64,000 nt of DNA, from assembly GCA_038087875.1 (NCBI GenBank), contig CM075993.1:2792001-2856000 (forward strand), written 5' to 3'. The notes below the pieces were generated by a model that did not search any database, was not told where the DNA came from, and saw nothing but the letters and a program-made list of their open reading frames with translations. Below are positions 1,239-61,262 of this stretch, one piece after another (within the stretch, counting starts at the first letter, position 1; the number at the start of each line of letters is the position of its first letter). A program made the translations under genes and the position numbers. The stretch comes from Malacoraja senta (taxonomy: Eukaryota).

Positions 1239-1447
1239 TTCTCCTCGTGACTTGCGTGGGATTTCTCCGCGATATTCCCAAGATGGGAAGAATAGCCTCC
1301 TCCCGTGGGAACAACAAGAGAGTCACTGTAATGCTTTCCCTGTCTGGGACGTAGATATATTAGTTGAAGATAGGCATCAAATGCTGGAGTAACTCAGCGG
1401 GACTGGCAGCATCTGTGGAGAGAAGGAATGGGTGACGTTTTGGATCG

Positions 1448-1842
1448 AGAATTTAGAAGGATGAGATGGGATCTTTTTGAAACATATAAGATTATTAAGG
1501 GTTTGGACAAGTTAGAGGCCCGATGTTGGGGGAGTCCAGAACCGGGGGTCACAGTAAGGAGTAAGCCATTTAGAACGGAGACGAGGAAACACTTTTTCAC
1601 ACAGAGAGTTGTGAGTCTGTGGAATTCTCTGCCTCAGAGAATTCCACAGACTCACAACTCTCTGTGTGATAATTTTGCGAGAGAGCTAGATAGGGCTCTT
1701 AAAGATAGCAGAGTCAGGGGATATGGGGAGAAGGCAGGGACGGGGTACTGATTGTAGATGATCAGCCATGATCACATTGAATGGCGGTGCTGGCTCGAAG
1801 TCTGAATGGCCTACTCCTGCACCTATTGTCTATTGTCTATTG
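1448..1842 (+). mobile_element. CR1 (HER1-like) LINE 3' fragment with internal fold-back
   Basis: Encodes ORF2 C-terminus (RRMRWDLFETYKIIKG...FFTQRVVSLWNSLP...GYGEKAGTGY*), then the 3' UTR and (TATTGTC)n tail. Confidence 0.9.
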
Positions 1843-2571
1843 AGACTCTTCTTCAGACTGATGTCAGGGGAGGCACCTTCTGTCTGATGTCACCTTCTCT
1901 CCAGAGACGCTGCCTGTCCCGCTGAGTAACTCCAGCAATTTTGTGTCCATCTTCGATTCGAACCAGCATCTGCAGTTCCTTCCTTCACATCCGAGAAATA
2001 TTAGTTGTCTAGCCAAGATTTAATTGAATGGTGGAATTGGCATGAGGGGCCGAATGGCCTAATTTGGCTTCTACTCCTCACGATCTACGTTCTAGTATTG
2101 CCAAGAGTTTGTGAGGGTCATGAACCAGCCGTGGGCTTTGGGTACTGGTACAAAGCCTCTTTTAACAGCAGAAACCACTGGTGACCTGGGAACACATGTC
2201 ACATTTAATTAAGAGGCATATATTGTCAGGGTTAATTTCCACTGGGTTAGTTCTGTCAAAATCCACTTGCACCAGAGGATGTGGACAAGCTGTGAATAAG
2301 AGATTCAGTAGCAGAGGGTCGCAAAGGTTTGTGTTACATTATGAGGGGAAGGAAGCTCTCATATTTGGGAGTTCATCGGCTATATTTAAGAGGGAGTTAG
2401 ATGTGGCCCTTGTGGCTAAAGGGATCAGGGGGTATGGAGAGAAGGCAGGTACGGGATACTGAGTTGGATGATCAGCCATGATCATATTGAATGGCGGTGC
2501 AGGCTCGAAGGGCCGAATGGCCTACTCCTGCACCTATTGTCTATGTTTCTATATAAAATTAGCACATTTGG

Positions 2572-2840: not shown

Positions 2841-2873
2841 AATTTTCCGCAATCACACATTTACAATCAGTTG

Positions 2874-3523
2874 TTTAAGAGGGAACTGCAGATGCTGCAA
2901 AAATCGAAGGTAGACAAAAATGCTGGAGAAACTCAGCGGGTGAGGCAGCATCTATGGAGCGAAGGAAATAGGCAACGTTTCGGGTCGAAACCCTGGAGGA
3001 AATAGGCAACGTTTCGGGTCGAAACCCTGGAGGAAATAGGCAACGTTTCGGGTCGAAACCCTGGAGGAAATAGGCAACGTTTCGGGTCGAAACCCTGGAG
3101 GAAATAGGCAACGTTTCGGGTCGAAACCCTGGAGGAAATAGGCAACGTTTCGGGTCGAAACCCTGGAGGAAATAGGCAACGTTTCGGGTCGAAACCCTGG
3201 AGGAAATAGGCAATGTTTCGGGTCGAAACCCTGGAGGAAATAGGCAACGTTTCGGGTCGAAACCCTGGAGGAAATAGGCAACGTTTCGGGTCGAAACCCT
3301 GGAGGAAATAGGCAACGTTTCGGGTCGAAACCCTGGAGGAAATAGGCAATGTTTCGGGTCGAAACCCTGGAGGAAATAGGCAACGTTTCGGGTCGAAACC
3401 CTGGAGGAAATAGGCAACGTTTCGGGTCGAAACCCTGAAGGGTTTCGACCCGAAACGTTGTCTATTTCCTTCACTCCATAGATGCTGCCTCACCTGCTGA
3501 GTTTCTCCAGCACTTTTGTCTAC
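2874..3523. mobile_element. Non-autonomous Penelope-like fold-back element with internal 34-bp tandem array
   Basis: Two inverted PLE 3'-repeat arms; 14-bp TSD TTTACAATCAGTTG at 2860-2873 and 3524-3537. Confidence 0.85.
2964..3436. repeat. Minisatellite, 14 x 34 bp
   Basis: Unit GGAAATAGGCAACGTTTCGGGTCGAAACCCTGGA; copies start at 2964, 2998 ... 3406. Confidence 0.95.
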
Positions 3524-3589
3524 TTTACAATCAGTTGAAAACTTTTGTTATCAGGGCTTACGAAGCACTGCTCAACTGGAGAGTTTTGC

Positions 3590-4078
3590 CACAAGGCAAC
3601 TAAAGGTCAAGACAAAGGAACAGAACCTCATATTTCGCTTGGGCAGCTTACACCCCAGCGGTACGAACATTGCCTTCTCTCACTTCAAGTCACCCATTGC
3701 TTTCCCTCTCTCTCCATCCCTCCCCCTTCCCAGTTCTCCCACCAGTCTGACCGTCTCCGACTACATTCTATCTCTGGTGGACAAAAGTGCTGGGGAAACT
3801 CAGCTGGGTGCGGCAGCGTCTATGGAGCGAAGGAAATAGGCAACGTTTCGGGCCGAAACCCTTCTTCATTATATCTCTGTTTGCTTTGTTGTCACCTTCT
3901 CCCAGCTAACAACGATCTCTTCCACAATGTCCTTGATCACCATTCCCTTTGCCCCGTCGTCACACCTTGCTCTTCCTTATCTATGTGCCTCCCTACCCCC
4001 TGACGGCCCGAAACGTCACCCATTCCTTCTCTCCAGAGATGCTGCCTGAGTTACTCCGACGTTTTGTGTCCATCTTCA
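3590..4078 (+). mobile_element. Penelope-like element 3' fragment with nested inverted PLE piece
   Basis: Encodes the degenerate C-terminus EQNLIFRLGSLHPSGTNIAFSHFK, matching the end of ORF 13272-13598. Nested piece ~3777-3867 is flanked by CATT(C/A)TATCTCTG. Confidence 0.8.
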
Positions 4079-5302: not shown

Positions 5303-6504
5303 TTTCCCTTGTCCCCCTCTCCCCATATCTCGGCACGATGCTCCCTTGTACAGGCTTCCACCGGGAAGTCCGGGCCTCTTGGCAACTGGTCGTCAAGTTT
5401 GATAGGAAAAGTCTGGGCCAAGTTTCTATTGGCGGCTCGGAGGAGGATATGACAGATTAGAAAAGAGTTTTAGAAAATTCCACAGACTCACCACTCCCTG
5501 TGAGAAAAAGTGAACTGAAGAAGTCTGAAGAAGGGGCTCGACCCGAAAAACGTCGCCCATTCCTGGCTTGAGATTTTTGCCGACAATCCCAGACGCCAGC
5601 ATTCTTCTCAGAAAAGTAATTGGACTAAAACCTCAGGTGTCTGAAGACCCTGGTGACATTCCATTGCAGAAATCCACCTTAGATGTGAGTGAGCGATAGC
5701 AGGAAATACGCCTTGACCTTCATCATAACAAGAATAAATGCTGTACAAAACTTCATCTATTGGCATCAGGCATCTTGCTGACAACTGCTGATGGAATCAG
5801 CTGGCAATCAAATAACCTTTGCAGCGGCAGAAGCACATTGAGGGGAAGAGACAAAGGGACGCAGACAAGTCCAAATGATATCATCGGAATGCAAATGAAA
5901 TTGCTGAAGGTAAGCTATATCAATGCAAATGCAAAAATCTCATCTCCATAAAAAGCGTCGCCACTTCTTCTGGCAGCTGACAATTTCAGCTCTAACCTTT
6001 TCCCATTTGACTGCCAGCAGTATTAAAAATGACTATTTCTGCTTTTTGCAACAAAAAAACAAACAGGGTTCTCTTGACCCTCTCTTGTCCATTTTTCAGT
6101 CAAGTGTTTAAGAGGGAACTGCAGATGCTGGAAAGTCGAAGGTAGACAAAAGTGCTGGAGAAACTCAGCGGGTGCAGCAGCATCTATGGAGCGAAGGAAA
6201 TAGGCAACGTTTCGGGACGAAACCCTTCTTCCGACATGGGGAGAAGGCAGGAACGGGGTAGTGATTGTGGATGATCAACCATGATCACAGTGAATGGCGG
6301 TGCTGGCTCGAAGGGTCGAATGGTCTACTCCTGCACCTATTGTCTATTGTCTATTTTTCCTACTCAAACTGCCGAATCTTTCCAGGAAAACGGCAGCAAC
6401 AGGCCAAAAGTAATGAAAGTAAACTCGATGATAAATCTCTGTTGCAAAAAGCAGGTGGGACCGTGTTTTTAAAAAATTCATGTCGTGGATGTGGCCATCG
6501 GTTC

Positions 6505-6683: not shown

Positions 6684-6981
6684 TGTTTAAGAAGGAACTG
6701 CAGATGCTGGAAAATCGAAGGTAGACAAAAATGCTGGAGAAACTCAGCGGGTGCAGCAGCATCTATGGAGCGAAGGAAATAGGCAACGTTTCGGGCCGAA
6801 ACCCTGAAGGAAATAGGCAACGTTTCGGGCCGAAACCCGGAAGGGTTTCGGCCCGAAACGTTGCCTATTTCCTTCGCTCCATAGATGCTGCTGCACCCGC
6901 TGAGTTTCTCCAAGGTAGACAAAATTGCTGCATCTATGGAGCGAAGGAAATAGGCAACGTTTCGGGCCGAAACCCTTCTTC
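6684..6981. mobile_element. Penelope-like fold-back terminal-repeat cluster
   Basis: Inverted arms centred on CCCGGAAGGG (~6836-6845), plus an extra partial arm. Confidence 0.8.
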
Positions 6982-7726: not shown

Positions 7727-8231
7727 CATATAAGATTATTAAGGGTTTGGACACGGTAGAGTCAGGGGATATGGGGAGAAGGCAGGAACGGGGTACTGAT
7801 TGGGGATGATCAGCCATGATCATATTGAATGGCGGTGCTGGCTCGAAGGGCCAAATGGCCTACTCCTGCACCTATTGTCTATTGTCTATAGAGGCAGGAA
7901 ACATGCTCCCGATGTTGGGGGAGTCCAGAACCAGGGGCCACAGTTTAAGAATAAGGGGTAAGCCATTCAGAACGGAGACAAGGAAACACTTTTGCTCACA
8001 GAGAGTGGTGAGTCTGTGGAATTCTCTGCGTCAGAGGGCGGTGGAGGCCGGTTTGGATACTTTCAAGAGAGAGCTAGATAGGGCTCTTAAAGATAGCGGA
8101 GTCAGGGGATATGGGGAGAAGGCAGGAACGGGGTACTGATCGGGGATGATCAGCCATGATCACATTGAATGGTGGTGCTGGCTCGAAGGGCTGAATGGCC
8201 TACTCCTGCACCTATTGTCTATTGTCTATTG
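7727..8231 (+). mobile_element. Two nested/tandem CR1 3' fragments
   Basis: Two copies of the GGGGATATGGGGAGAAGGCAGG...CCTATTGTCTATTGTC 3' end. Confidence 0.85.
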
Positions 8232-8250
8232 CTCCTACAATTAATGCTTG

Positions 8251-8853
8251 ATGCGCCGAGGAGTTCCCTGCAACCTGTTCCTCTCGCGGCTCACAGACTC
8301 GCCAGCCGCCTGCCACTATTTGCGGGCTGGAAGAGTCTGTGTTCCACGTGTATATGGAGTGCGTGAGGGCTGCAACCCCTGTTCCAATACCTAAAGGGGC
8401 TGCTCCTTGCCTGCTGGCGGGACCCCTCACCCGCCACCCTCATCTTTGGACACCCAGTGCGTAGGGGAGAGGGTAGGGTTGAAGGTGTCCCTGGTTGGGG
8501 CAGGCTCCTGGGCCTGGCCAAGCTCGCCATCCGCGAGTCACGGTGCCAGGCGGAAGAGAGCTCTGCCCGAGCCAGCTGCCTGCCCCTTTTTCCATGGTTA
8601 CGTCCGAGCCCAGGTGGCACTAGAAAGGGACTACGCGCTGTCCACAGGCACCCTGGGGGGTTTCCGGGACCGCTGGACACCGCGGGGGGTGGAATCCATC
8701 CTCAATAAGAATTGTATTATAGTTATTTGAAAATTTAATGTCTTGGATCATTTGATCATTTTGTACTATAGTAATGGTTATGTCACCACAGTTTTTTTTA
8801 TTGTGTTGCTTTGTATCGTAATTGAATAACTTATTTTTTATACCAAAAAAAAA
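8251..8853 (+). mobile_element. Tx1 (L1-group) non-LTR retrotransposon, 5'-truncated
   Basis: Frameshifted ORF2 C-terminus with CCHC-like knuckle (C..CGLEESVFHVYMEC) and LLGLAKLAI...YVRAQVALE...FRDRW; U-rich 3' UTR; poly(A); TSD TAATGCTTG at 8242-8250 and 8854-8862. Confidence 0.8.
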
Positions 8854-9416
8854 TAATGCTTGCTATGTCTTTTTTTCCGTTAAAAGTGGTTGGAAAAAAA
8901 AATGTGTTCACGCTGCGTCGGCAAGGCCAGCAGTGAAATCAGGGACCAGTCTCACCCCCGGACACTCCCTCTTCCATCAGCAGAGAGGTACAGAAGTAGA
9001 AAAACAAACACTTATGACCAAACGGTGCAGTAGACTCGATGGGCCGAATGGCCTCGTTCTGTCCTCCTCTGACTTGCGAACGTGTGAATGTATTTCAAAC
9101 GTCCACCCGTATTTTTGTGATGGGGGGAAGAATGTTCCGTAGAGAACATTAACGATCTCGACGCAAAGCTGCTGAGACCACAGACTCAATCGGAGATTCC
9201 AAAAGTGCCATTGATTTTTGCTATGTAAGGGCATTAAGCGATATCGAACCGGAGCGTGTAAATTTAGTTGGACACAGCTTAACCCTGGGCTAAAATGAGC
9301 GGAGGGGTCAGAACTGCAAGATCTGATCGTTCTCTGATGTGTTCAAGAGAGAGTTCAGGGCCTGTCCCACTTGGCCGTTCCTTCTCTCCAGAGATGCTGC
9401 CTGCCCCGCTGAGTTA

Positions 9417-10074
9417 AGGGCCTGTCCCACTTGCGTGTCCTTGGCACGCAAATTCCGCGAGCTCATCATCGCGTTGAGGCGCACGGGCATCGTGTGGCCG
9501 CGCGGGGCCGGTCCCACTGAGAAGCGCGGAGGTGTATGTAGTTGTGCGCGGTATCGCGCGGCGCTCCCGAAATTTTGTAGGGAACGAAATCTTCGCGTAA
9601 CTGACGGCCAAAGTGGGACAGGCCCAAGGCTCTGGCGCGACGCAACGGCTCACCTCCAACAGCAGCAGAAGGAGCAGGCAAACGATCGCCGAGCTCGGCC
9701 TGGGGCTCACGGCCGTTTGCGGTCCTGATCCGCCCCCCCACTTCTACTCCCAGAGCGGGGCCAAGAAAATTGAAGATGGACACAAAATGCTGGAGTAACT
9801 CAGCGGGACAGGCAGCATCTCTGGAGAGAAGGAATGGGGTCAAGACCCTTCTTTCAGACTGAAGAACAGTCTCGACCCGAAACGTCACCCATTGCTTCTC
9901 TCCAGAGATGCTTCCGGTCCCGGTGAGTTACTCCAGCATTTTGTGTCCATCTTCAAATGACGTCACGCGCTCCAGACGGCTGTGCGGGCGCATGAAATCG
10001 CGCGTGACCTTCGCGCCTCAACGCGACCACAAGGTCACGTAATTAGCGTGCCAAGGACACGTGGGACAGGGGCT
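9417..10074. mobile_element. PIF/Harbinger-type MITE with nested PLE palindrome
   Basis: TIRs AGGGCCTGTCCCACTTGCGTGTCCTTGGCACGC / GCGTGCCAAGGACACGTGGGACAGGGGCT; flanks TTA (9414-9416) and TGA (10075-10077). It splits a PLE repeat at GAGTTA|CTCC; a PLE inverted repeat is nested at ~9770-9956. Confidence 0.75.
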
Positions 10075-10709
10075 TGACTCCAGCATTTTGCGACTGCCTT
10101 CGATTTAAACCAGCGTCCGCAGTTTTTTCCTACTGAGTTACTCCAGCACTTTGTGTCTGTTTTAGTATTTGTTTTTAATGCTAGACACCGTCAATTTAAT
10201 TTATAGTTTTGAGGAGGAAACGGTTGCTATGCTTACTTTATTATTGACATCGGTGACTGATAGCCACCGATGTGCACTAATTCACCATTCTGTCAGGGAG
10301 AGTGAATTTCTGGAGCCTTATCTAAAGTCTGACAGTCAGGCCCTGCTTAATCAGTGTGAGCTCTGGCAACTGTGTCACCCTGTATGTGGTGGTTAATTAA
10401 GGAAAGTCTATTAACACCAGCACAGCATCAACGTAGAGAACCGTATTTAATGCTATCTCATTAAACTGCTGTTCCTCAAGGAAGTGTATATTTACTCTCT
10501 CCCTCACTGACAATGGATGCACTTTTATCCGTGCCCGCATACCCACCAGTGGCACGGTGGCGCAGCTGGTAGAGTTGCTGCGTCACAGCGCCGGAGACCC
10601 GGGTTCGATCCTGACCTCAGCTGCTGTCTGTGTGGAGTTCATACCTTCTTCCGGTGACCACGAGGGTTTTCTCTGGGTGCTCAGGTTTCCTCCCACGTCG
10701 CAAAGATGC

Positions 10710-11210
10710 GCAAACGGTCAAAACGAGGGACAAATTCCCGACGGCAGTTCGTCGACCGACTCGGCCGTGGCTGGGTGGGTGAATGACGAGTTGGCCCCGG
10801 GTGCTGGACTGCACACAAAGCCCAGCCGGCGGGCCAGCTGAGGAGTTTTGGCCCGGGCCGCGCGGCGTCGCGCGCTAAGTCCGGCCCCCCCCCATCCAAC
10901 TCATGAACCATGAGAAGGAGGGGGGGTGGTGGTGGTGTCGCCGGTAAGCGAAGGTCTGAAGGTCGGACAGCTGGCCGGGCTGCCGACCGACCGACGGGGC
11001 CACGGGCGAGGCGCTGCTGCTGCTGCACTCCACGGGCTGCACTACGTCGGGACGGGTGAGGCGGGGCCAGACGCGGCGCTCCGACCCGACAGCCCCCTCG
11101 ACCCGGGTAGTAGCAGTCAAATACGGGACAAGGGCGGTCCCGTATGGGACAAACCAATTTAGCCCAATATACGGGATGTCCCGGCTAATACGGGACAGTT
11201 GGCAAACCTA
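10710..11210 (-). mobile_element. hAT (Blackjack-like) non-autonomous DNA transposon, one end retained
   Basis: Minus-strand terminus TAGGTTTGCCAACTGTCCCGTATTAGCCGGGAC with repeated TCCCGTAT subterminal motifs; GC/CpG-rich body. Confidence 0.55.
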
Positions 11211-11500
11211 AGGGGTCGGCCACTTGGGACTGAGATGAGGAAACACTTTTTCACCCAGAGAGTTGTGAATTTGAGGAATTCTCTGCCACAGAAGGCAGTG
11301 GAGGCCAATTCACTGGATGTTTTCAAGAGAGAGTTATATTTAGCTCTTAGGGCTAACGGAATCAAGGGATATGGGGAGAAAGCAGGAACGGGGTACTGAT
11401 TTAGGATGATCAGCCATGATCGTATTGAATGGGGGTGCTGGCTCGAAGGGCCGAATGGCCTACTCCTGCGCCTTTTTTTCCACACATTTCCATGTTTCTA
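11211..11500 (+). mobile_element. CR1 LINE 3' fragment
   Basis: TEMRKHFFTQRVVNLRNSLPQKAVEANSLDVFKREL...GTGY*. Confidence 0.9.
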
Positions 11501-12944: not shown

Positions 12945-13811
12945 CCTCAATATCCCGCAGCTCCGTTCTTGCTCCCCCCCCCCTCGTAACAAGGACAGAG
13001 ACCCCCTTGTCCACACCTTCCACCCATCAGCCATCGTATACAGCATATAATCCTCCAATATTTTCGCCACCTCCAACGGGATCCCACTACTGGCCACATC
13101 TTCCCATCTCCACCCCTTTTTGCTTTCCGCAGAGACCGTTTCCTCCACAACTCCCTGGTCTACTCGTCCCTTCCCACCCAAACCACCCCCTCCCCAGGTA
13201 CTTTCCCCTGCAACACCTGTCCCTTTACCTCCCCCATCGACTCCATCCAAGGACCCCGACAGTCTTTCCAGGTGAGGCAGAGGCTCACTTACACCTCCTC
13301 CAACCTCATCTACTCTATCCGCTGTTCCAGGTGTCAACTTCAGTACATCGGCGAGACCAAGCGCAGGCTCGGCGATCGTTTCGCTGAACACCTCCGCTCA
13401 GTCCGCCTTAACCTACCTGATCTCCCGGTGGCCCAACACTTCAACTCCCCCTCCCATTCCCAATCTGACCTTTCTGTCCTGGGCCTCCCCCGTTGTCAGA
13501 GTGAGGCCCAGCGCAAATTGGAGGAACAGCACCTCATATTTTGCTTGGGCAGCTTACACCCCAGCGGTATGAACATTGACTTCTATAACTTCAAGTAACC
13601 CTTGCTTTCTCTCTCTCTCCATCCCCTCCCCCTTCCCAGTTCTCCCACCAGTCTCACTGTCTCCAACTAGATTGTATCTCTGTCTGAACATCAGTCTGAA
13701 GAAGGGTCTCGACCCAAAACTTCTCCAGAGAAGCTGCCTGTCCCGCTGAGTTACTCCAGCATTTTGTGTCTACCTTTGATATGAACCAGCATCTGCAGTT
13801 CTTTCCTACAC
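12945..13811 (+). mobile_element. Penelope-like retroelement, 5'-truncated, with GIY-YIG endonuclease region
   Basis: ORF remnant (below) plus 3' repeat with degenerate hammerhead; 14-bp TSD AGTAGGAATTTATT at 12931-12944 and 13812-13825. Confidence 0.9.
13272..13598 (+). pseudogene. GIY-YIG endonuclease domain of a Penelope-like polyprotein (fragment)
   Basis: NLIYSIRCSRCQLQYIGETKRRLGDRFAEH...VAQHFN...RKLEEQHLIFCLGSLHPSGMNIDF contains the xIY-YIG motif with CxxC and the conserved R, H, E and N residues. Confidence 0.85.
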
Positions 13812-14364
13812 AGTAGGAATTTATTTATATAATATATAACATAGAGCAGAGGAAAAAATCAGACATTCGGGAAGTTTGAAATATATTGATCAAAGATAAA
13901 AAGTGATATCTTTAATGTCAACAATCAAACTATGGTATCCTGGTCACAAACTTTCAGAAGGAAATTTTCCTCCTTGTTTCTTCTGATCAACGTCTCACGA
14001 AACCCATCAAAGTGATTGACTTTTAAATGCCTTCTCAGTTCAAGAGTAAAGAGTCAAGAGTCAGCAACAAAATTCTTACTTGCAGGAGTAAACACAACCC
14101 ACTTGGCTAATATGCAATAAACTCTATGGCTCAATGAGAGTGGGCCTGTACTCGCTGGAGTTTAGAAGGATGAGTGGGCACCTCATTGAAACTGACCGAA
14201 CAGTGAAAGACCCGGATGGAGTGGATGTGGAGAGGATGTTTCCACTAGTGGGAGAGTCTAGGACCAGAGGTCACAGCCTCAGAATAAATGGACGTACCTT
14301 TAGAAAGGAGATGAGGAGAAATTTATTTAGTCAGAGGGTGGGCCGAAGTGTCTTTTTGCACCAA

Positions 14365-14715
14365 AGATAGACACAAAATGCTGGGGTAACTCAGCGGGCC
14401 AGGCAGCATCTCTGGAGAGAAGGAATGGGTGACGTTTTGGGTCGGGACCCTTCTTCAGACTGATGTCAGGGGTGAGAGAGATACGTAGATAAGAAAGTGT
14501 AAGGTGTGAACATGGGACCAAGGGAATGGAGATCAAGGAAAATTTAGAGTAGATCATTGTTAGCTGGGAGTAGATGGTGAAGGCGTGGTCGTAGCTTCGA
14601 AGAGTAGGAGGAATCACAGAGAGGGAGAAGCGAGAGAGGATGTTGAAGAACTCTCGTCGGAGAGAGGAGGAGAACTTCTTCAAAGTTGACATATCTTGAG
14701 GAGATTTCGCAGTGT
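14365..14715 (-). mobile_element. Penelope-like fragment (internally deleted)
   Basis: PLE 3' repeat on the minus strand joined to GAGAGAGGAGGAGAACTTCTTCAA...GAGGAGATTTCGCAGTG, also seen at ~53200-53256. Confidence 0.65.
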
Positions 14716-15606: not shown

Positions 15607-15933
15607 AGGTACACAAAAATGCTGGAGAAACTCAGCGGGTGCAGCAGCATCTATGGAGCGAAGGAAATAGGCAACGTTTCGGCCCGAAACCCTTCTTCTA
15701 TGGAGCAAAGGAAATAGGCAACGTTTCGGCCCGAAACCCTTCTTCTATGGAGCAAAGGAAATAGGCAACGTTTCGGCCCGAAACCCTTCTTCTATGGAGC
15801 GAAGGAAATAGGCAACGTTTCGTCCCGAAACGTTGCCTATTTCCTTCGCTCCATAGATGCTGCTGCACCCGCTGAGTTTCTCCAGCATTTTTGTGTACCT
15901 TCGATTTTCCAGCATCTGCAGTTCCTTCTCAAA
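15607..15933. mobile_element. Penelope-like fold-back element with tandem sub-repeats
   Basis: Inverted arms with four GGAAATAGGCAACGTTTCG units; 14-bp TSD CAAGGTTATTTAGA at 15593-15606 and 15934-15947; inserted in an old CR1 fragment. Confidence 0.85.
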
Positions 15934-20214: not shown

Positions 20215-20660
20215 TAAAATCATGAGAGGAATAGATCGGGTAGATGCACAGAGTCTCTTGCCCAGAGTAGGGGAATCGAGGACCAGAGGACATAGGATTA
20301 AGGTGAAGGGGAAAAGATTTAATAGGAACCTTTTCACACAGAGGGTGGTGGGTGAATGGAACGAGCTGCCAGAGGAGGTGGTTCAGGCTGGGACTATCCC
20401 AACGTTTAAGAAACAGTTTGACAGGTACATGGTAGGTAGACAAAAATGCTGGAGAAACTCAGCGGGTGAAGCAGCATCTATGGAGCGAAGGAAATAGGCA
20501 ACGTTTCGGGCCGAAACCCTTCTTCAGACAGGTACATGGATAGGACAGGTTTGGAGGGATAAGGACCAAACGCGGGCAAGTGGGATTAGTGTAGCTGGGA
20601 CATGTTGGCCGGTGTGGGCGAGTTGGGCCTGTTTCCACACTGTATCACTCTATGACTGTG
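20215..20660 (+). mobile_element. CR1 3' fragment with nested PLE piece (20433-20526)
   Basis: MRGIDRVDAQSLLPRVGESRTRGH...; nested PLE flanked by 13-bp TSD GACAGGTACATGG at 20420-20432 and 20527-20539. Confidence 0.85.
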
Positions 20661-22442: not shown

Positions 22443-22833
22443 TTTGTGTATCATCGCACGGGCATAAATAAGGTGAATAATGACTCTCTTGTCACCAGCA
22501 TAGGGGAACCGAGGGGTCTGTTTCCACACTGTGTCTCTCAACTCAACCAAACGAAACTAAAAATAAAACCTCGCTTATAACCTAACTTATAGTCTCCTGG
22601 GGTCTTCTTTACCAAGTTACTTTCCTAGTTTATTTCTGCCATGAGAACATTTGACAATGAATGAAAAATATGCAAATAAGTAATGATGATAAAGGCGAAA
22701 GGCCAATGTTAGCTGTGGGCTCGGTGAAAACGAGTCATAGACAATGAGACTCAACGTCGGAAGAAGGGTCTTGACACAAAACGTCACCCATTCCTTCTCT
22801 CCAGAGATGCTGCCTGGCCCGCTGAGTTACTCA

Positions 22834-23556
22834 TGAGATGCAACGAGACACCTGTCATTAATAGTAGTCATGCAGGTGCAGCAGGAAGTGAAGAAAGCGA
22901 ATGGTATGTTAGCATTCATAGCAAAAGGATTTGAGTATAAGAGCAGGGAGATTCTACTGCAGTTGTACAGGGTCTTGGTGAGACCACACCTGGAGTATTG
23001 CGTACAGTTTTGGTCACCTAATCTGAGGAAAGACATTCTTGCCACAGAGGGAGTACAGAGGAGGTTCACCAGATTGATTCCTGGGATGTCAGGACTTTCA
23101 TATGAAGAAAGACTGGATAGACTCGGCTTGTACTCGCTAGAATTTAGGAGATTGAGAGGGGATCTTATAGAAACGTACAAAATTCTTAAGGGGTTGGACA
23201 GGCTAGATGCAGGAAGATTGTTCCCGATGTTGGGGAAGTCCAGAACAAGGGGTCACAGTTTAAGGATAAGGGGGAAATCTTTTAGGACCGAGATGAGGAA
23301 AACATTTTTCACACAGAGAGTGGTGAATCTGTGGAACTCTCTGCCACAGAAGGAAGTTGAGGCCAGTTCATTGGCTATATTTAAGAGGGAGTTAGATGTG
23401 GTCCTTGTGGCTAAAGGGATCAGAGGGTATGGAGAGAAGGCAGGTACAGGATACTGAGTTGGATGATCAGCCATGATCATATTGAATGGTGGTGCAGGCT
23501 CGAAGGGCCGAATGGCCTACTCCTGCACCTATTGTCTATGTTTCTATGTTTCTATG
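22834..23556 (+). mobile_element. CR1 LINE ORF2 3' fragment
   Basis: KKANGMLAFI...[19 protein letters not shown]...GTGY*, 3' UTR and (TATGTTTC)n tail; duplicate at 31433-32172. Confidence 0.92.
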
Positions 23557-24224: not shown

Positions 24225-24601
24225 AATAGACAATAGACAATAGGTGCAGGAGTGGGCCATTCGGCCCTTCGAGCCAGCACCGCCATTCAATGTGATCATG
24301 GCGGATCGTCCCCAATCAGTACCCCGTTCCCGCCTTCTCCCCATATCCCCTGACTCCGCTATCTTTAAGAGCCCTATCTAGCTCTCTCTTGAAAGCATCC
24401 AGAGAACCTGCCTCCACCGCCCTCTGAGGCAGAGAATTCCACAGACTCACCACTCTCTGTGAGAAAAAGTGTTTCCTCGTCTCCGTTCTAAATGGCCGAC
24501 CCCTTATTCTTAAACTGTGGCCCCTGCTTCTGGACTCCCCCAACATCGGGAACATGTTTCCTGCCTCTAGCGTGTCCAAGCCCTTAACAATCTTATATGT
24601 T
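24225..24601 (-). mobile_element. CR1 3' fragment inserted into a SINE
   Basis: Interrupts the SINE at CGCAGGTCA|CGGGGAGAACG; minus-strand ORF2 C-terminus. Confidence 0.85.
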
Positions 24602-24904: not shown

Positions 24905-25200
24905 AGGTACATAAAAATGCTGGAGAAACTCAGCGGGTGCAGCAGCATCTATGGAGCGAAGGAAATAGGCAACGTTTCGGGCCGAAACCCTGAAGGAAAT
25001 AGGCAACGTTTCGGGACGAAACCCGGAAGGGTTTCGGGCCGAAACGTTGCCTATTTCCTTCGCTCCATAGATGCTGCTGCACCCGCTGAGTTTCTCCAGC
25101 AGGTACACAAAAATGCTGGAGAAACTCAGCGGGTGCAGCAGCATCTATGGAGCGAAGGAAATAGGCAACGGTTCGGGCCGAAACCCTTCTTCAGACTGAT
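24905..25200. mobile_element. Penelope-like fold-back cluster
   Basis: Same architecture as 6684-6981. Confidence 0.8.
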
Positions 25201-25311
25201 GGGGGGGAGAAAATAAATGATATTTAGTTAGCAATCGTAGCAACACCGTTTCTCATGAGCACCGTGGTGCATTCTTCACGACGTGAGCCCTTTTAATCCG
25301 AGGCTGTTTAC

Positions 25312-27365: not shown

Positions 27366-27678
27366 ACATAGAAACATAGAAAATAGGTGCAGGAGTAGGC
27401 CATTCGGCCCTTCGAGCCTGCACCGCCATTCAATATGATCATGGCTGATCATCCAACTCAGTATCCTGTACCTGCCTTCTCTCCATACCCCCTGATCCTT
27501 TTAGCCACAAGGGCCACATTCTAACTCCCTCTTAAATATAGCCTATGAACTGGCCTCAACTACCTTCTGTGGCAGAGAATTCCACAAATAAAGGTAGACA
27601 AAAGTGGAGAAACTCAGCGGGTGCAGCAACATCTATGGAGCGAAGGAAATAGGCAACGTTTCGGGCCGAAACCCTTCT
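27366..27678 (-). mobile_element. Chimeric PLE + CR1 insertion present only in duplicate copy A
   Basis: 19-bp direct repeat TCAGGGGATATGGGGAGAA at 27347-27365 and 27679-27697; empty site at 35782-35800. Confidence 0.85.
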
Positions 27679-29244
27679 TCAGGGGATATGGGGAGAAGGC
27701 AGGAACGGGGTACTGATTGGGGATGATCAGCCACGATCACATTGAATGGCGGTGCTGGCTCGAAGGGCCGAATGGCCTACTCCTGCACCTATTGTCTATT
27801 GTTTGGGATTTTTGTTTTTGCTCTGGAGGTAAGGCAGTGGTTCCATTTCTCTGGTGGTTTCATTTAAAGACATTGACAAGACTCTGATCAGAATGAAATA
27901 GGTCATTTCACGAGAATGCGTTACACCGGACAAACAGGCTCGGGTAATAATGAAACGGCGTGGCGGCCTTGAGATGTAATATCAGCCCTCGGCTGCACAG
28001 CTGAAATGGAGAATAATGGATATCTCTGAGCGCTTACACGATAAAAAAAAAATGTAATCGTGGGGTTCAGATAATATAAACAAGGCCAGCAAAATGTCGA
28101 TGCTTTCCACATGTTTCACAAGCTGCATTGCTGGAAAATCCCTCTGTGTTATTATATATTAAGGAGGAAATAAATTTGCCGCAAAATATTAACCAGCCCT
28201 AAACGTGAGAGAACATTGCACTCTGCCTCCAAGTTTGATGTTCAATGTGGACGCAAGGAACCGCAGATGCTGGTTTACAGATAAAAGATACTAGGTGCTG
28301 GAGTACCTGGTGGTGGTAGACTGGTGGTGGCCCAGCGGTAGAGATACTGCCTCACGGTGCCAGAGCTCCGGGTTCGATTCTGACTAGTGTAGCTGGGGCA
28401 TGTTGGCTGGCGTGGGCAAGTTGGGCCTGTTTCCACACTGTATCACTCTACTAGAATGACACTTTCTCTGGCAGCTTGTCCCATGTACGTGTACTGCCTT
28501 CTGTGTGAAAACGTAGCCCCTCGAGTTCCCATTCAATCTGTCCCCTCTCACTTGAAACCTGTGCTGCCAGAAGAGGTAGTTGAAGCCGGGACTATCCCGA
28601 CATTGACGAAACAGTTGGGCAGGTACGCGAATAGGACAGATTTGGAGGGATATGGGCAGTTGGGGCAGGCAGCATCTCTGGGGAGGAGGAATGGGTGATG
28701 TTTCGGGTCAAGACCCTCCTTCAGTATGAAACGTCACCCATTCCTTCTCTCCAGAGATGCTGCCCGTCCCCGCTGAGTTACTCCAGCTTTTTGTGTCTGT
28801 CTTCGGTTTAAACCAGCATCTGCCAGTTCCTTCTTACACAGATGAGACTAGTGTAGCGGGGACATGTTGTCCGGTGTGGGGCAAGATGGGCCGAAGGCCT
28901 GTTTCCACGCTGTATCACTCTATCACTCACTGTCACAGCAATGCCGTGAAACAATTTGCCTCTTCAAAGGGCAACACACTATTGCTGCCAGCGTATGAAC
29001 CACAAGACAATGACGTGCAGGAACAAGTCTGGCAGTGGCAATAAGATTAAAACTGTTAAACAAGAAAAAAACAGAATGACATTATAATTTATTGGTCTGC
29101 TTTCTTACATTATACAAAAATGTCAATCTTGTCACAAACGTTTCACAACGATGATGGAGGAAGACATGTTTAATACTGCAGTAATAAGCCTCTGCTCACC
29201 GGCTGCTCTCTGATCTGCAGCAGGCTCGATCATCCCTTCAACTG

Positions 29245-29446: not shown

Positions 29447-29477
<31 letters not shown>

Positions 29478-29554: not shown

Positions 29555-29594
<40 letters not shown>

Positions 29595-29729: not shown

Positions 29730-29774
<45 letters not shown>

Positions 29775-31083: not shown

Positions 31084-34000
31084 TGACTCTCTTGTCACCA
31101 GCGTAGGGGAACCGAGGGGTCTGTTTCCACACTGTGTCTCTCAACTCAACCAAACGAAACCAAAATTAAAACCTCGCTATACTAACTTATAGTCTCCTGG
31201 GGTCTTCTTTACCAAGTTACTTTCCTAGTTTATTTCTGCCATGAGAACATTTGACAATGAATGAAAAATATGCAAATAAGTAACGATGATAAAGGAGACA
31301 GGCCAATGTTAGCTGTGGGCTCGGTGAAAACGAGTCATAGACAATGAGACTCAACGTCGGAAGAAGGGTCTCGACACAAAACGTCACCCATTCCTTCTCT
31401 CCAGAGATGCTGCCTGGCCCGCTGAGTTACTCATGAGATGCAACGAGACCTGGGTGTCATGGTACACCAGTCATTAATAGTAGGCATGCAGGTGCAGCAG
31501 GCAGTGAAGAAAGCGAATGGTGTGTTAGCATTCATAGCAAAAGGATTTGAGTATAAGAGCAGGGAGGTTCTACTGCAGTTGTATAGGGTCTTGGTGAGAC
31601 CACACCTGGAGTATTGCGTACAGTTTTGGTCACCTAATCTGAGGAAAGACATTCTTGCCATCGAGGGAGTACAGAGAAGGTTCACCAGACTGATTCCTGG
31701 GATGTCAGGACTTTCATATGAAGAAAGACTGGATAGACTCGGCTTGTACTCGCTAGAATTTAGAAGATTGAGGGGGGATCTTATAGAAACGTACAAAATT
31801 CTTAAGGGGTTGGACAGGCTAGATGCGGGAAGATTGTTCCCGATGTTGGGGAAGTCCAGAACAAGGGGTCACAGTTTAAGGATAAGGGGAAATCTTTTAG
31901 GACCGAGATGAGGAAAACATTTTTCACACAGAGAGTGGTGAATCTCTGGAACTCTCTGCCACAGAAGGTAGTTGAGGCCAGTTCATTGCCTATATTTAAG
32001 AGGGAGTTAGATGTGGTCCTTGTGGCTAAATGGATCAGGGGGTATGGAGAGAAGGCAGGTACAGGATACTGAGTTGGATGATCAGCCATGATCATATTGA
32101 ATGGTGGTGCAGGCTCGAAGGGCCGAATGGCCTACTCCTGCACCTATTGTCTATGTTTCTATGTTTCTATGTTACTCCATCTTTTTTCTGTGTCTATCTT
32201 GGAACCATCCTCTTTAGTGATATGATACCAAGGCCCAGCCACACACACACACACACAGCCCGATCATTCACACTGCTATTATGCCTGCTCTCCTCACATG
32301 TAAGCTCACTCATAATAGATATTTATTGTCTCAGTAATCTCACTTCACGCAAAAGCAAGTGGATTTGTTCAATCTTCCATGAAAATATCCCACGTACATT
32401 CCTCCCACACGGAGGGACTTATTTTTAGATTTATCTGTGGCATCTCCTCGGGAAATTATTGTGCATTTAAAGGTTATTTCTTATTACATGCTATTAGGGG
32501 GGCAGAGTATTTATCTGCATCACCACATAATCAAAAGGGGTGACAAAGGAGGTTTCGCTAATGCATGAAATCCAGTCCCGTCACCCTTGTGTCACCAGCT
32601 TGGCATGGTTAAGTAGAGAAAACTCATCCGGGCACATTATGGAAGTTTAGTTTATGTTTAGTTGAGAGATACAGCGCGGAAACAGGCCCTTCGGCCCACC
32701 GAGTCCGCCCGACCAGCGATCCCCGCACACTAACACTATCTTACATATTCGGGACAATTTGCACATACACCAGGCAGACCTGCACGTCTTTGGAGTGTGG
32801 GAGGATACCGAAGATCTCGGAGAGAGCAAACGCAGGCCAATAGACAATAGACAATAGGTGCAGGAGTAGGCCATTCGGCCCTTCGAGCCAGCACCGCCAT
32901 TCAATGTGATCATGGCTGATCATCCCCAATCAGTACTCCGCTTCCCGCCTTCTCCCCATATCCCCTGACTCCGCAATTTTTAAGAGCCCTATCGAGCTCT
33001 CTCTGAAAGCATCCAGAGAACCTGCCTCCACCGCCCTCTGAGGCAGAGAATTCCACAGACTCACCACTCTCTGTGAGAAAAAGTGTTTCCTCGTCTCCGT
33101 TCTAAATGGCCGACCCTTATTCTTAAACTGTGGCCCCTGCTTCTGGACTCCCCCAACATCGGGAACATGTTTCCTGCCTCTAGCGTGTCCAAGCCCTTAA
33201 CAATCTTATATGTTTACAGGTCACGGGGAGAACGGACAAACTCCAGCCAGCACTCCACAACGGAGACATCAATAGGTGTTTTATTGGAAAACCATGAGTG
33301 TTTGATTAAATCTAGTTTGAATCACACCCCTGTAATTACCAAATGCTACCTTTTTATTAGCCAGCTATAACTCAAAATGGACACTGTACTTTAATGGCTT
33401 GTTGCCTTGTCTTTAACAATAATATGACCATCAGATGATGATATTATTCACAGCGATGGGTTTTCATAGATGCTCCATAATGAATAATGCCGCAGTATTA
33501 ATCAGAAATAATATTTAAGGTACATAAAAATGCTGGAGAAACTCAGCGGGTGCAGCAGCATCTATGGAGCGAAGGAAATAGGCAACGTTTCGGGCCGAAA
33601 CCCTGAAGGAAATAGGCAACGTTTCGGGACGAAACCCGGAAGGGTTTCGGGCCGAAACGTTGCCTATTTCCTTCGCTCCATAGATGCTGCTGCACCCGCT
33701 GAGTTTCTCCAGCAGGTACACAAAAATGCTGGAGAAACTCAGCGGGTGCAGCAGCATCTATGGAGCAAAGGAGGTGCAGGAGTAGGCCATTCGGCCCTTT
33801 CGAGCCTGCACCGCCATTCAATATGATCATGGCTGATCATCCAACTCAGTATCCCGTACCTGCCTTCTCTCCATACCCACTGATCCCTTTAGCCACAAGG
33901 GCCACATCTAACTCCCTCTTAAATATAGCCAATGAACTGGCCTCAACTGCCCTCTGTGGCAGAGAATTCCAGAGATTCACCACTCTCTGTGTGAAAAAAT

Positions 34001-49009: not shown

Positions 49010-49790
49010 ACACAGAGTGCTGGAGTAACTCAGCGGGTCAGGCAGCATCTGTGGAGAACATGGATAGGTGACGTTTCACAGAGGTGCTGGAGTAACTCAG
49101 CGGGTCAGGCAGCATCTGTGGAGAACATGGATAGGTGACGTTTCACAGAGTGCTGGAGTAACTCAGCGGGTCAGGCAGCATCTGTGGAGCGAAGGAAATG
49201 GGCAACCTTTCGGGCCGAAACCCTGAAGGAAATAGGCAACGTTTCGGGCCGAAACCCGGAAGGGTTTCAGGCCGAAACGTTGCCTATTTCCTTCGCTCCA
49301 TAGATGCTGCCGGAACATGGATAGGTGACGTTTCACAGAGTGCTGGAGTAACTCAACGGGTCAGGCAGCATCTGTGGAGAACATGGATAGGTGACGTTTC
49401 ACAGAGTGCTGGAGTAACTCAGCGGGTCAGGCAGCATCTGTGGAGCGAAGGAAATGGGCAACCTTTCGGGCCGAAACCCTGAAGGAAATAGGCAACGTTT
49501 CGGGCCGAAACCCGGAAGGGTTTTGGGCCGAAACGTTGCCTATTTCCTTCGCTCCATAGATGCTGCCGCACCCGCTGAGTTTCTCCAGCATTTTGGTCTA
49601 CCTTATCATTTATAGTGTGGTTCCGTATAGCTTACAAAGCACAGAAGTACACTGTGCCAGAGTAACTCAGCGGGTCAGGCAGCATCTGTGGAGCACATGG
49701 ATAGGTGACGTTTCACAGAGTGCTGGAGTAACTCAGCGTGTCAGGCAGCATCTGTGGAGGACATGGATAGGTGACGTTTCGGATGAGGAT
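49010..49790. repeat. 66-bp PLE-derived tandem array with nested fold-backs
   Basis: Unit CACAGAGTGCTGGAGTAACTCAGCGGGTCAGGCAGCATCTGTGGAGAACATGGATAGGTGACGTTT; sister array at 55033-55422. Confidence 0.9.
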
Positions 49791-51940: not shown

Positions 51941-52269
51941 TGAGAAGGGCGATCGATGGTTGGTGTGGACTCGTTGGGAAGAAGGGCCTGCTTCCAATCT
52001 GTATCTCTAAACTAAACTAATCTGGGACATCTCCAAAAGTGAACAATTCATTGCAAGATTACACCAAGGCCAGAAATAGAAGCTCGCACTTCAGTAGCTG
52101 ACTCAGTACAAGGTTCTATCTTTGTTAAGCAGTATTAGTCGTGCCAATTACAACAGTGAGAAGACGGATAAGTGTTGCTGAGACTGGAAGCATCCCCTCA
52201 TGCAACATATGGTTTTTTTTCCCACTTGGAATCTGTGTGATCTTCAGTTGCAATGTAACAGCGCAGAAG

Positions 52270-52935
52270 GTTTAAGAAGGAACGGCAGATGCTGGAAAAA
52301 TCAAAGGGAGACAAAAATGCTGGAGAAACTCAGCGGGTGAGGCAGCATCTACGGAGCGAAGGAATAGGCGACGTTTCGTGTCGAGACCCTTCTTCAGGCT
52401 GATGTGGGGGTGGGGGGGGGGATTAAGAAGAAAGGAAGAGGCGGTGACAGTGGGCTGTGGGAGAGCTGGGAAGGGGAGGGGAAGGAGGGAGAAAGCAGGG
52501 ACTACCTGAAATTGGAGAAGTCAATGTTCATACCGCTGGGGTGTAAACCACCCAAGCGAAATATGAGGTGCTGCTCCTCCAATTTACGGTGGGCCTCACT
52601 CTGTCCATGGAGGAGGCCCAGGACAGAAAGGTCGGATTCGGAATGGGAGGGGGAGTTGAAGGGCTGAGCACCGGGAGATCGGGTTGGTTATTGCGAGCCA
52701 CATGAGTGGCAAGGGTGGGGGAATAAATTTGTGATTTGAGGAAACTGTATTGAATGTATGTATGTATGTATAGCCTCCGAGAATGTCGGATGGAGTTTTG
52801 TATAGATCATGCATTGTATATATTTATTTCTCAAAATAAAGTCTATTTTGAAATAATTTAAAAAACATATTTTTTTTAACTGAGCGGAGGTGTTGGGTGA
52901 AGCGATCGCCAAGCCTGCGCCTTGTGGAAGGTGAA
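52270..52935 (-). mobile_element. Penelope-like 3' end interrupted by a probable Tx1-type tail (~52700-52880, +)
   Basis: Minus-strand GIY-YIG C-terminus; the insert has AATAAAGTCTATTTTG and an A-rich end. Confidence 0.7.
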
Positions 52936-55032: not shown

Positions 55033-55422
55033 ACACAGAGTGCTGGAGTAACTCAGCGGGTCAGGCAGCATCTGTGGAGAACATGGATAGGTGACGTTTC
55101 ACACAGTGCTGGAGTAACTCAGCGGGTCAGGCAGCATCTGTGGAGCGAAGGAAATGGGCAACCTTTCGGGCCGAAACCCTGAAGGAAATAGGCAACGTTT
55201 TGGGCCGAAACCCGGAAGGGTTTCGGACCAAAACGTTGCCTATTTCCTTCGCTCTATAGATGCTGCTGGAACATGGATAGGTGACGTTTCACAGAGTGCT
55301 GGAGTAACTCAGCGGGTCAGGCAGCATCTGTGGAGAACATGGATAGGTGACGTTTCCCAGAGTGCTGGAGTAACTCAGCGGGTCAGGCAGCATCTGTGGA
55401 GAACATGGATAGGTGACGTTTC
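55033..55422. repeat. 66-bp PLE-derived tandem array with nested fold-back
   Basis: Same composite as ~49077-49400. Confidence 0.9.
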
Positions 55423-57062: not shown

Positions 57063-57172
57063 ATTTAAGAAGGAACTGCAGATGCTGGAAAATCGAAGGT
57101 AGACAAAAGTGCTGGAGAAACTCAGCGGGTGCGGCAGCACCTGCTGAGTTTCTCCATCACTTTTGTCTACCT
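57063..57172. mobile_element. Minimal PLE fold-back (110 bp, hammerhead deleted)
   Basis: 13-bp TSD AAACTCAAAGGAT at 57050-57062 and 57173-57185. Confidence 0.8.
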
Positions 57173-60294: not shown

Positions 60295-61262
60295 ATTAGA
60301 TTAGATTTAGATTAAATACTTTATTGATCCCCTCAGGGAAATTCAGATGTGTTAAAGAAGGAACTGCAGATGCTGGAAGATCGAAGAATGCTGGAGAAAC
60401 TCAGCGGGTGCAGCAGCATCTGTGGAGCGAAGGAAATAGGCAACGTTTCGGGCCGAAACCCTGAAGGAAATAGGCAACGTTTCGGGACGAAACCCGGAAG
60501 GAAATAGGCAACGTTTCGGGCCGAAACCCTGAAGGAAATATGGAACGTATCGGGCCGAAACCCTGAAGGAAATAGGCAACGTTTCGGGCCGAAACCCTGA
60601 TGGAAATAGGCAACGTTTCGGGACGAAACCCGGAAGGAAATAGGCAACGTTTCGGGACGAAACCCGGAAGGGTTTCGGCCCGAAACGTTGCCTATTTCCT
60701 TCGCTCCATAGATGCTGCTGCACCCGCTGAGTTTCTCCAGCATTTTTGTCCACCTTCGATTTTCCAGCATCCGCAGTTCCTTCTTAAACAACCTATATAT
60801 CAGTCCCATTTCAGAATTCCCTTCTCGGAGCGAAACGTTGCCTATTTCCTTCAGGGTTTCGGCCCGAAACGTTGCCTATTTCCTTCGCTCCATAGATGCT
60901 GCTGCACCCGCTGAGTTTCTCCAGCATTTTTGTGTACCTAGGGAAATTCAGATGTCCAGAAGCCAACAGCCAACAAACCCACACATTCAGAACGAAAGCA
61001 GACAAAATATACATAAATACAATATGGACAGCACCTGAAAGCAATAAATACTTAAAAAGACCCAACAATTAACAATTAAAAATGCAAAGCATCCCCATAC
61101 AGCCCAGCGGTCCGTATTATAAAATCTAATGGCTGCAGGGGTGAAGGTTCTCCCGAACCGATCCGTTCTACAGGGCAGGGGAGAGGAGCCGGTTGTTGTT
61201 CCGTGTGCTCTTTTGCCCCATCCAGAGTTTCATGGAGGGGGTGCCCGGAGTTGTCGAGGATG
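60295..61262 (-). mobile_element. Rex1/Babar-like LINE 3' fragment hosting a PLE insertion
   Basis: Minus-strand ILDNSGHPLHETL...TPAAIRFYN; (TAGAT)n tail and TTTATTGATCCCC at the left end. Confidence 0.7.
60351..60939. mobile_element. Penelope-like fold-back with 34-bp array and captured spacer
   Basis: 16-bp TSD AGGGAAATTCAGATGT at 60335-60350 and 60940-60955. Confidence 0.85.

What the first reader, a model, noticed from the sequence alone, without database searches (positions are those of the whole stretch)
2860..3537. ORF-less, hammerhead-centred fold-back mini-elements insert as single units with 13-16 bp TSDs
Seen: inverted-arm PLE structures, each bounded by one TSD, at 2874-3523 (14 bp), 15607-15933 (14 bp), 57063-57172 (13 bp) and 60351-60939 (16 bp). 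The same TSD size flanks the coding PLE 12945-13811 (14 bp) and a single arm 20433-20526 (13 bp). In the copies that retain it, the inversion point lies in or beside the hammerhead motif (CCCGGAAGGG or CCCTGAAGGG), and the same two-unit fold-back core recurs at 6684, 24905, 49190 and 55146. Inference: this is a non-autonomous family whose master copy is itself a hairpin RNA, mobilised in trans by the PLE RT/GIY-YIG enzyme, resembling a retrozyme or MITE rather than independent truncations.
Basis: partly seen in the sequence, partly recalled or inferred. Interest (0 to 1): 0.75.

Follow-up and report, generated by a model that had tools for sequence, protein, structure and literature searches.

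The report
Hairpin-shaped Penelope insertions, one inherited core
These short hairpin-shaped insertions in a shark-or-ray genome are mostly the ordinary two-armed leftovers of Penelope jumping genes, but one hairpin turn, with its ribozyme destroyed, seems to have been copied again and again from one ancestor.

Summary
All six named target-site duplications (TSDs) are exact at the stated coordinates. The elements are 3' ends of an elasmobranch Penelope-like element (PLE), laid head-to-head, with the 34-35 nt 'tail' on one TSD-adjacent end only. That layout is published for PLEs, and this scan noted it before in two other genomes. The four named elements are not one family. Two have private turns (15607, 57063), and 16 turns in the window fall on about nine axes, which fits independent joining of two cDNAs primed at the two target nicks (inferred). 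One core does recur. The CCC-NGAA-GGG turn sits in 6 of 12 young-subfamily loci. It has no microhomology, and five of the six share an untemplated G after the same 34-bp unit. That points to descent and re-copying of a hairpin-bearing template. Arm lengths differ in every copy, so it is a passenger core, not a fixed mini-element. The turn deletes part of the hammerhead's catalytic box, so it is not a retrozyme, nor a MITE. RNA reads from a related organism showed no dominant hairpin junction. No whole genome was available. Verdict: known architecture plus a probable inherited variant.

The parts
2874..3523 (.). Two-armed insertion: tailed arm 2874-2994, 13 further 34-bp units 2995-3436, turn CCC-TGAA-GGG at 3433-3442, tail-less arm 3437-3523
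2860..2873 (+). Left TSD (14 bp); right copy 3524-3537
15607..15933 (.). Two-armed insertion: tail-less arm with 47-bp repeats, private turn in the stem II/III quasi-palindrome (15817-15831), tailed arm; exact 14-bp TSD
57063..57172 (.). Two-armed insertion: tailed arm, private turn at 57130-57148 short of the hammerhead, tail-less arm; exact 13-bp TSD
60351..60939 (.). Tailed arm, 7 units in all, turn CCC-GGAA-GGG (60663-60672), tailed arm to 60792, 38-nt spacer 60793-60830, third arm 60831-60939 starting at the short site and carrying the 34-bp go-back junction; exact 16-bp TSD
6684..6981 (.). Three-armed G-core copy: tailed arm, second unit, turn at 6836-6845, arm stopping at arm position 52, third arm from the short site; no TSD found
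24905..25214 (.). Three-armed G-core copy from the short site; third arm runs into the start of the 3' UTR; candidate 12-bp TSD with 1 mismatch (24893-24904, 25215-25226)
33518..33772 (.). Copy of 24905 inside a segmental duplication (not independent)
49149..49604 (.). Two G-cores (256 bp apart) pasted into a 66-bp tandem array of an older PLE subfamily
55105..55268 (.). G-core in the same 66-bp array context; 97% identical to 49077-49445 over 369 bp, immediate flanks unrelated
20433..20526 (-). Single tail-less arm ending at the hammerhead box; exact 13-bp TSD; descriptor intact
3777..3866 (-). Single tail-less arm inserted in an older PLE 3' UTR; 13-bp TSD with 1 mismatch
6105..6231 (-). Single tailed arm (reference for the read lay); abuts a CR1-like 3' fragment (family label recalled); no TSD found
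27592..27680 (-). Single tail-less arm; descriptor intact; no TSD found
12945..13811 (+). 5'-truncated coding PLE fragment of another subfamily (frame 12990-13598); exact 14-bp TSD
52269..52680 (-). Nearest ORF-bearing relative of the young arms: same tail and short ends, 3' UTR and ORF end
1367..1993 (.). Older-subfamily two-armed insertion (tail-less left, tailed right) with a nested CR1-like fragment; candidate 14-bp TSD with 1 mismatch; private turn

Best explanation
Two layers. (1) The class. The PLE enzyme nicks both target strands 12-16 nt apart and extends both 3' ends, one from the distal RNA start site (giving the tail) and one from the site about 35 nt further in. Both cDNAs tend to stop around the hammerhead region and are joined by short matches or snap-back. 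Each event gives a TSD-bounded head-to-head hairpin with its own turn. Shown: TSDs, ends, turns. Inferred: the priming and joining steps. (2) The core. One such turn (CCC-NGAA-GGG) put a second GAAGG 34 nt after the first. Slippage between the two made the 34-bp unit, the loop base changed to G, and transcripts carrying this arm-unit-turn block were reverse-transcribed again in trans. The block rides inside PLE-end RNAs of variable extent and is sometimes spliced into other templates by template switching. Shown: shared derived features. Inferred: descent and the RNA route. The ribozyme is dead in the core.
For: Each of 5 of 5 TSD-bounded two-armed inserts has one tailed and one tail-less end at its TSDs (4 exact TSDs; 1 candidate). 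The two ends match the main loose-end positions in two organisms' DNA and in RNA (6104-6105 and 6138-6141; the DNA runs' top rows show the short end, the RNA runs' rows both). At the four young tailed ends the TSD's last 1-2 bases equal the element's first (T or TG). A purified PLE cuts and extends both strands and starts at two internal sites that bracket the tail (PMC11167929). 10 of 16 turns are off the shared axis, 9 of those 10 with overlapping arms. For descent: 6 turns share one axis with 0 overlap; 5 carry a G found on neither strand, against 31 substitutions in 1355 aligned arm bases. The same five have a T-type unit first and a G-type unit last. 49190 and 55146 share chimeric junctions and private bases but not flanks. 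The third arm of 60351 starts at the short site beside the TSD and itself holds the go-back junction. In organism E the G-type go-back junction is the top row of those shown (depth 985; 12 of 174 rows shown). Regular-arm sequence explains at most 41% of the 31-mers of 60340-60960, yet 14 DNA runs hold 56-60% of 43 sampled words.
Against: Only one 64-kb window could be counted (no genome). The five G copies are at most four lineages. An axis can recur without descent: two older loci share one axis and two others share another. 2874 has the shared axis but other subfamily markers in both arms and all units, so the axis arose twice or the arms were converted. In RNA of organism E no strand-change joint at the axis is among the 15 of 95 joints shown, and go-back-34 joints total 20 reads where about 4800 cover the site. 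No exact CCCT|GAAGG joint row is among those shown either. 5 of 5 tail asymmetry has chance about 0.03 if each end is tailed half the time. The word-share argument rests on 43 sampled words.
Confidence: 0.6

Rival explanations
1. One reading: one ORF-less family with a fixed hairpin master RNA accounts for the TSD-bounded fold-backs, in the manner of a retrozyme or MITE.
For: Shared G-core in 5 loci; TSD-bounded units without ORF; very stable RNA hairpin (-156.5 kcal/mol, z -22.8, as expected of any long inverted repeat).
Against: The four named elements have three different turn positions. Right arms of core copies end at six different places (arm positions about 1, 35, 38, 50, 52, 72-75). 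Catalytic box absent. No dominant hairpin joint among the RNA rows shown.
Confidence: 0.12
2. No inheritance: the CCC-NGAA-GGG turn is a sequence-determined hot spot remade at each insertion, for example snap-back of a cDNA stalled at CTTCAG on a 2-bp match, a 3-nt slip, then GAAGG slippage.
For: Same axis in two subfamilies (2874 against the rest). Two other axes recur in older copies. Many single arms end at CTTCA(G). A and G variants of the go-back junction occur in organism E. Left and third arms agree at the G/C marker within 6684 and within 24905.
Against: Does not explain the same untemplated G in the last unit of five loci, the T-then-G unit order, or the shared chimeric junctions of 49190 and 55146.
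Confidence: 0.12
3. The core is inherited but spreads at DNA level, by ectopic gene conversion or repair template switching among neighbouring PLE ends, with no hairpin RNA intermediate.
For: The core is pasted into another subfamily's array at points of homology (49190, 55146). Arm extents vary. All core copies here point the same way. The core looks much commoner in this window than in organism E's RNA reads.
Against: Four core copies begin exactly at an RT start site; two have exact TSDs and one a candidate. The short-site arm of 60351 carries the go-back junction next to its TSD.
Confidence: 0.13
4. Assembly or sequencing artefact at hairpins.
For: Long perfect hairpins and near-identical 34-bp arrays are hard to sequence (own knowledge). 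The unit number at 2874 may be unreliable. No listed run holds more than 60% of the words.
Against: Exact TSDs; arms and units carry distinct substitutions; the go-back junction is in independent DNA and RNA runs.
Confidence: 0.03

Closest known systems
Tandem/inverted insertions of endonuclease-bearing PLEs (Pen2a_Av and others: PMC3846280, passages and whole Discussion read; PMC8557442, passages read)
   Same: Inverted 5'-truncated pLTR inside one TSD; 30-40 nt tail on one end only; palindromes at the inverted junction; pLTRs suffice for mobilisation in trans.
   Different: Here the insert is reduced to two arms of 40-130 nt, TSDs are 13-16 bp (8-10 in the rotifer examples read), and one turn carries shared derived bases across loci.
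PAc Poseidon element in vitro (PMC11167929, parts 1-2 of 4 read)
   Same: Two internal RT start sites delimiting the tail; both target strands cut and extended; hammerhead cleavage not needed for insertion.
   Different: The parts read do not derive two-armed inserts from one priming per strand; that link is my inference. The clade of the present element was not determined.
Animal non-LTR retrozymes (PMC7229834, passages read; bioRxiv 10.64898/2026.07.22.740005, parts 1-3 of 5 read)
   Same: ORF-less, PLE pLTR-derived, tandem units, presumed PLE mobilisation, TSDs longer than 4 bp.
   Different: Retrozymes are direct repeats with an intact type I hammerhead in each unit. Here the units are 34 bp, lack the catalytic box and end in an inversion.
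Non-autonomous Chlamys PLEs such as MRC1 (PMC8557442, passage read)
   Same: Non-autonomous PLE derivatives sharing the 3' end of an autonomous family.
   Different: Described as pLTR-forming, head-to-tail; no inherited fold-back in the passage read.
MITEs (PMC8969392, passage read)
   Same: Short, ORF-less, inverted ends, TSD.
   Different: Unequal ends at RT start sites, variable TSD length, sequence derived from a retroelement.

Membership tests
Penelope-like element (endonuclease-bearing), truncated/inverted insertion | Ends homologous to the 3' end of an ORF with C-terminal GIY-YIG whose full-length relatives carry RT | tested here: met
   Arms have 110 identities over 122 nt to the ORF-linked copy at 52269. 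The frame at 12990 has a weak PF01541 hit. Of 19 longer relatives, the top five are elasmobranch and one bears both RT and GIY-YIG Pfam domains.
Penelope-like element (endonuclease-bearing), truncated/inverted insertion | Minimal type I hammerhead in the pLTR | tested here: met
   17 matches to my own descriptor after PMC4209133, including young single arms at 20527 and 27682. Rfam gives no hammerhead hit. Cleavage not tested.
Penelope-like element (endonuclease-bearing), truncated/inverted insertion | 30-40 nt tail at one end only; inverted arm inside one TSD | tested here: met
   5 of 5 TSD-bounded two-armed inserts.
Penelope-like element (endonuclease-bearing), truncated/inverted insertion | Clade assignment by RT phylogeny; an intact autonomous partner | not testable with these tools
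   No RT-coding PLE copy found in the window and no genome held.
Non-LTR retrozyme | At least two tandem direct units, each with an intact type I hammerhead | tested here: not met
   No descriptor match in any core copy or 34-bp array.
Non-LTR retrozyme | Monomer of about 150-450 bp (51-972 in the 2026 preprint) | tested here: not met
   Units are 34 bp and 47 bp.
Non-LTR retrozyme | Abundant circular RNA | tested here: inconclusive
   One lay on RNA of a related organism: go-back joints in 20 of about 4800 covering reads; one run is oligo-dT and neither is suited to circles.
MITE | Equal terminal inverted repeats shared with a DNA transposon and fixed short TSD | tested here: not met
   Ends differ by the tail; TSD 13-16 bp; arms are PLE sequence.
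Non-autonomous retroelement family with one master | Shared derived junction across independent loci | tested here: met
   For the G-core only: 5 loci. Not for 15607 or 57063.
Non-autonomous retroelement family with one master | Common ends and length among copies | tested here: not met
   Six different right-arm ends among core copies.
Non-autonomous retroelement family with one master | Already catalogued in Dfam or Repbase | not testable with these tools

The most novel reading that the evidence does not exclude
The G-core is a true non-autonomous PLE lineage whose RNA is a long hairpin that has lost ribozyme function. Its inverted arm stops just short of the RT start sites (arm positions 50-52 in 24905 and 6684), leaving them single-stranded. 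The sense arm that the first cDNA acquires then serves as a ready landing site for the cDNA primed at the second nick. The hairpin would thus be a selected device for resolving two-nick PLE integration, and a dispersed source of dsRNA in elasmobranch genomes.
Probability: 0.25. Interest if true: 0.68.

Novelty: new variant of a known kind. Interest (0 to 1): 0.42.

Why it matters
How PLEs build their tandem and inverted inserts is called undefined in the papers read (PMC8557442, PMC3846280). A young, very abundant family (65,508 and 74,315 contigs laid in two organisms) with clean TSDs is a natural record of the reaction. One tailed and one tail-less primed end per insert would tie the in vitro two-strand, two-start-site result to genomic structure, and it is testable by counting. 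If the core is re-copied as RNA, then hairpin by-products can found lineages without a working ribozyme, unlike retrozymes. Otherwise this is routine repeat anatomy.

Tried and rejected
No whole genome was held, so the genome-wide census could not be run. Exact-pattern scans for the junction or the young arm found nothing in viral contigs or metagenome contigs. An 18-mer gave 86 and 84 matches in metagenome and prokaryote contigs; the best of 170 loci aligned over only 22-29 nt, so all were treated as chance. Rfam: nothing at gathering score; E-value scans gave only generic hairpin or lncRNA matches. Idea rejected: the 34-bp unit reflects two RTs spaced by the tail length. The arms do not end 34 nt apart, the unit occurs in both tailed and tail-less arms, and GAAGG slippage explains it. 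Idea rejected: PLE arm plus adjacent CR1-like fragment as one co-primed insert; no TSD bounds 6105, 6684 or 27592. The turn is not at the hammerhead cleavage site; the shared axis is at the box/stem II border. The 60351 spacer has no other copy in the window. One-mismatch TSD search: 3 hits in 23 loci. Background was 2 of 300 for a 40-bp window, and 33 and 40 of 300 for 700 and 1300 bp. So 24905 and 1367 rest on lying at the element ends and remain candidates. No structure or complex prediction was run; it does not bear on the claim.

Full report
Observation. The six named TSDs are exact and adjoin the stated ends. Random boundary pairs give such a repeat in 29 of 4591 cases outside the CA arrays. 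The stretch 2874-3523 is a 121-nt arm, 13 more 34-bp units, a turn and an 87-nt inverted arm. A blast with four natural reference copies grouped the window's related fragments into 65 loci, so the background is dense and of several ages.

What the arms are. Read on the coding strand, the repeat is the 3' end of a Penelope-like element: ORF end, pyrimidine-rich UTR, CTGAAGA box, stem II, GAAAC-GT(C/T), then about 85 nt to a short end and a further 34-35 nt to a long end. The frame at 12990 has a weak GIY-YIG hit. Of 19 longer relatives found among 515 candidates, the top five are from rays and sharks, and one bears both RT and GIY-YIG domains. The host is therefore taken to be an elasmobranch. 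The young arms are closer to the ORF-linked copy at 52269 (110 identities) than to 12945-13811 (90), so the named coding copy is a cousin, not the parent. A descriptor that I wrote after PMC4209133 (parts 1-2 of 4 read) finds 17 minimal hammerheads in the window, none in a copy with the shared turn. Rfam does not detect these motifs.

Two ends. Each of the four named two-armed inserts has the long end at one TSD and the short end at the other. So does a fifth, older insert at 1367-1993 with a one-mismatch candidate TSD. Laying four public runs on a single arm gave 65,508 and 74,315 contigs (organisms A and E) and 13,735 and 13,213 RNA reads (organism E). The top loose ends lie at the long end (6104-6105, RNA rows) and the short end (6138-6142, all four runs). 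At the four young long ends the last one or two TSD bases equal the element's first bases. This is the PLE tail, described as present on one end only, beside an inverted truncated copy within one TSD (PMC8557442 passages; PMC3846280 passages and Discussion; PMC8969392 passage). A purified PLE cuts and extends both target strands and starts at two sites that bracket the tail (PMC11167929, parts 1-2 of 4). My inference is that each nick primes one cDNA, one per start site, and the two are joined. Snap-back of one cDNA with later endonuclease resolution, as those papers suggest, is not excluded. Arms disagree at common polymorphic sites in 60351 (position 41) and 2874 (position 49), which favours two templates. 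They agree in 15607 and 57063.

Turn census. After dropping four duplicated or near-duplicate copies (33518, 36764, 49446, 61940), 16 head-to-head turns were mapped on one coordinate. Six share one axis. The other ten fall on eight values, two of them twice, and nine of the ten have overlapping arms. 15607 and 57063 are among these private turns. So the class is made by independent events, and an axis can recur where a quasi-palindrome lies.

The core. The six turns on the shared axis have no overlap between arms. Five (6684, 24905, 49190, 55146, 60351) carry a G at the loop that neither strand templates, against 2.3% arm divergence (31 of 1355 bases). All five have a T-type unit first and a G-type unit last. 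The turn places a second GAAGG 34 nt after the first, which explains the unit by slippage (inference). 49190 and 55146 share entry and exit points in an older 66-bp array and private bases, are 97% identical over 369 bp, and have unrelated flanks. They count as one lineage copied twice. In 60351 the arm that starts at the short site beside the right TSD also carries the go-back junction. The core is in 6 of the 12 independent young-subfamily loci that I count in the window. Outside the window, organism E's contigs hold the G-type go-back junction as the best-supported of 12 rows shown out of 174, with an A-type next (that run was not fully counted). Fourteen DNA runs of five organisms hold 56-60% of 43 sampled words of 60340-60960, whereas regular-arm sequence within three mismatches covers 41% of its 31-mers. 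Both are indirect.

Against a fixed hairpin family. Right arms of core copies end at six different places, and left arms start at either site. 2874 has the axis with T, and older markers in both arms and all units, so the axis arose twice or was converted. Among 15 of 95 joints shown in the lay, the four strand changes are scattered and none is at the axis. Go-back-34 joints are 20 reads of about 4800 in the bulk RNA run. Caveats: organism E need not be the window's species, short-read contigs cannot cross long hairpins, and hairpin cDNAs are under-sequenced (own knowledge).

Comparison. It works like a PLE inverted insertion and meets the three PLE features I could test. It fails the retrozyme definition of tandem units each with an intact hammerhead (PMC7229834 passages; bioRxiv 10.64898/2026.07.22.740005 parts 1-3 of 5) and the MITE definition. 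Searches listed no paper whose title or abstract start describes an inherited fold-back PLE derivative or this elasmobranch family. The library lacks most subscription papers, Dfam and Repbase could not be checked, and no supplements were read; those of PMC11167929 and of the 2026 preprint may show similar copies. Earlier notes of this scan report the same class in two other genomes. They were leads only.

Verdict. Real and correctly located. The class is known PLE anatomy. The probable descent of one ribozyme-dead hairpin core is the new element, shown only within one window. Interest 0.42.

Noticed in passing
run X21 laid on window:6095-6245, place 6138: The loose-end consensus before the short start site looks like a template-switch adapter (recognised from memory; 690 reads, agreement 0.47), and reads run about 3:1 on the strand antisense to the ORF. 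This may mark RNA 5' ends at the short site: an antisense promoter, or exonuclease stalling at hairpin bases.
   Followed up: no
older arms, e.g. window 14360-14455 and 48086-48175 (+ strand): The strand antisense to the ORF has motifs one mismatch from the Pol III A box and B box, about 43 nt apart (consensus recalled, judged by eye). The young subfamily has drifted further from both.
   Followed up: no
window-wide, young subfamily: All four single arms and the unit-bearing side of all core copies lie on the same strand, while older subfamilies lie both ways (7 against 8 for one marker). This suggests a strand bias at this locus.
   Followed up: partly
window 6900-6930 and 25090-25115: A second, 3'-to-3' turn: the sense arm stops at arm position 52 or 50 and a new arm starts at the short site, as expected from self-priming or re-initiation. 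The two junctions differ by 2 nt.
   Followed up: partly
window 49010-49844 and 55018-55422: 66-bp tandem arrays made from an older PLE end, into which the young core is spliced at points of homology.
   Followed up: partly
window 6232, 6982 and 27681: Three young arms are directly followed by CR1-like 3' fragments (family label recalled); no TSD bounds the pairs.
   Followed up: partly
window 22481-30600 versus 31084-38692; 42454-42748 versus 61680-61984; 45504-45985 versus 46593-47061: Segmental or local duplications (about 8.6 kb period for the first, 93-99% identical, with N gaps and long CA arrays); could include assembly duplication.
   Followed up: partly
window 8000-11500: GC- and CpG-rich stretch (up to 64% GC, 45 CpG per 500 bp), possibly a promoter island; host gene not identified.
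   Followed up: no
window 60793-60830: The spacer resembles, with gaps, the reverse complement of the 60351 TSD; chance, sloppy copying of the target, or flank carried from a donor locus.
   Followed up: partly
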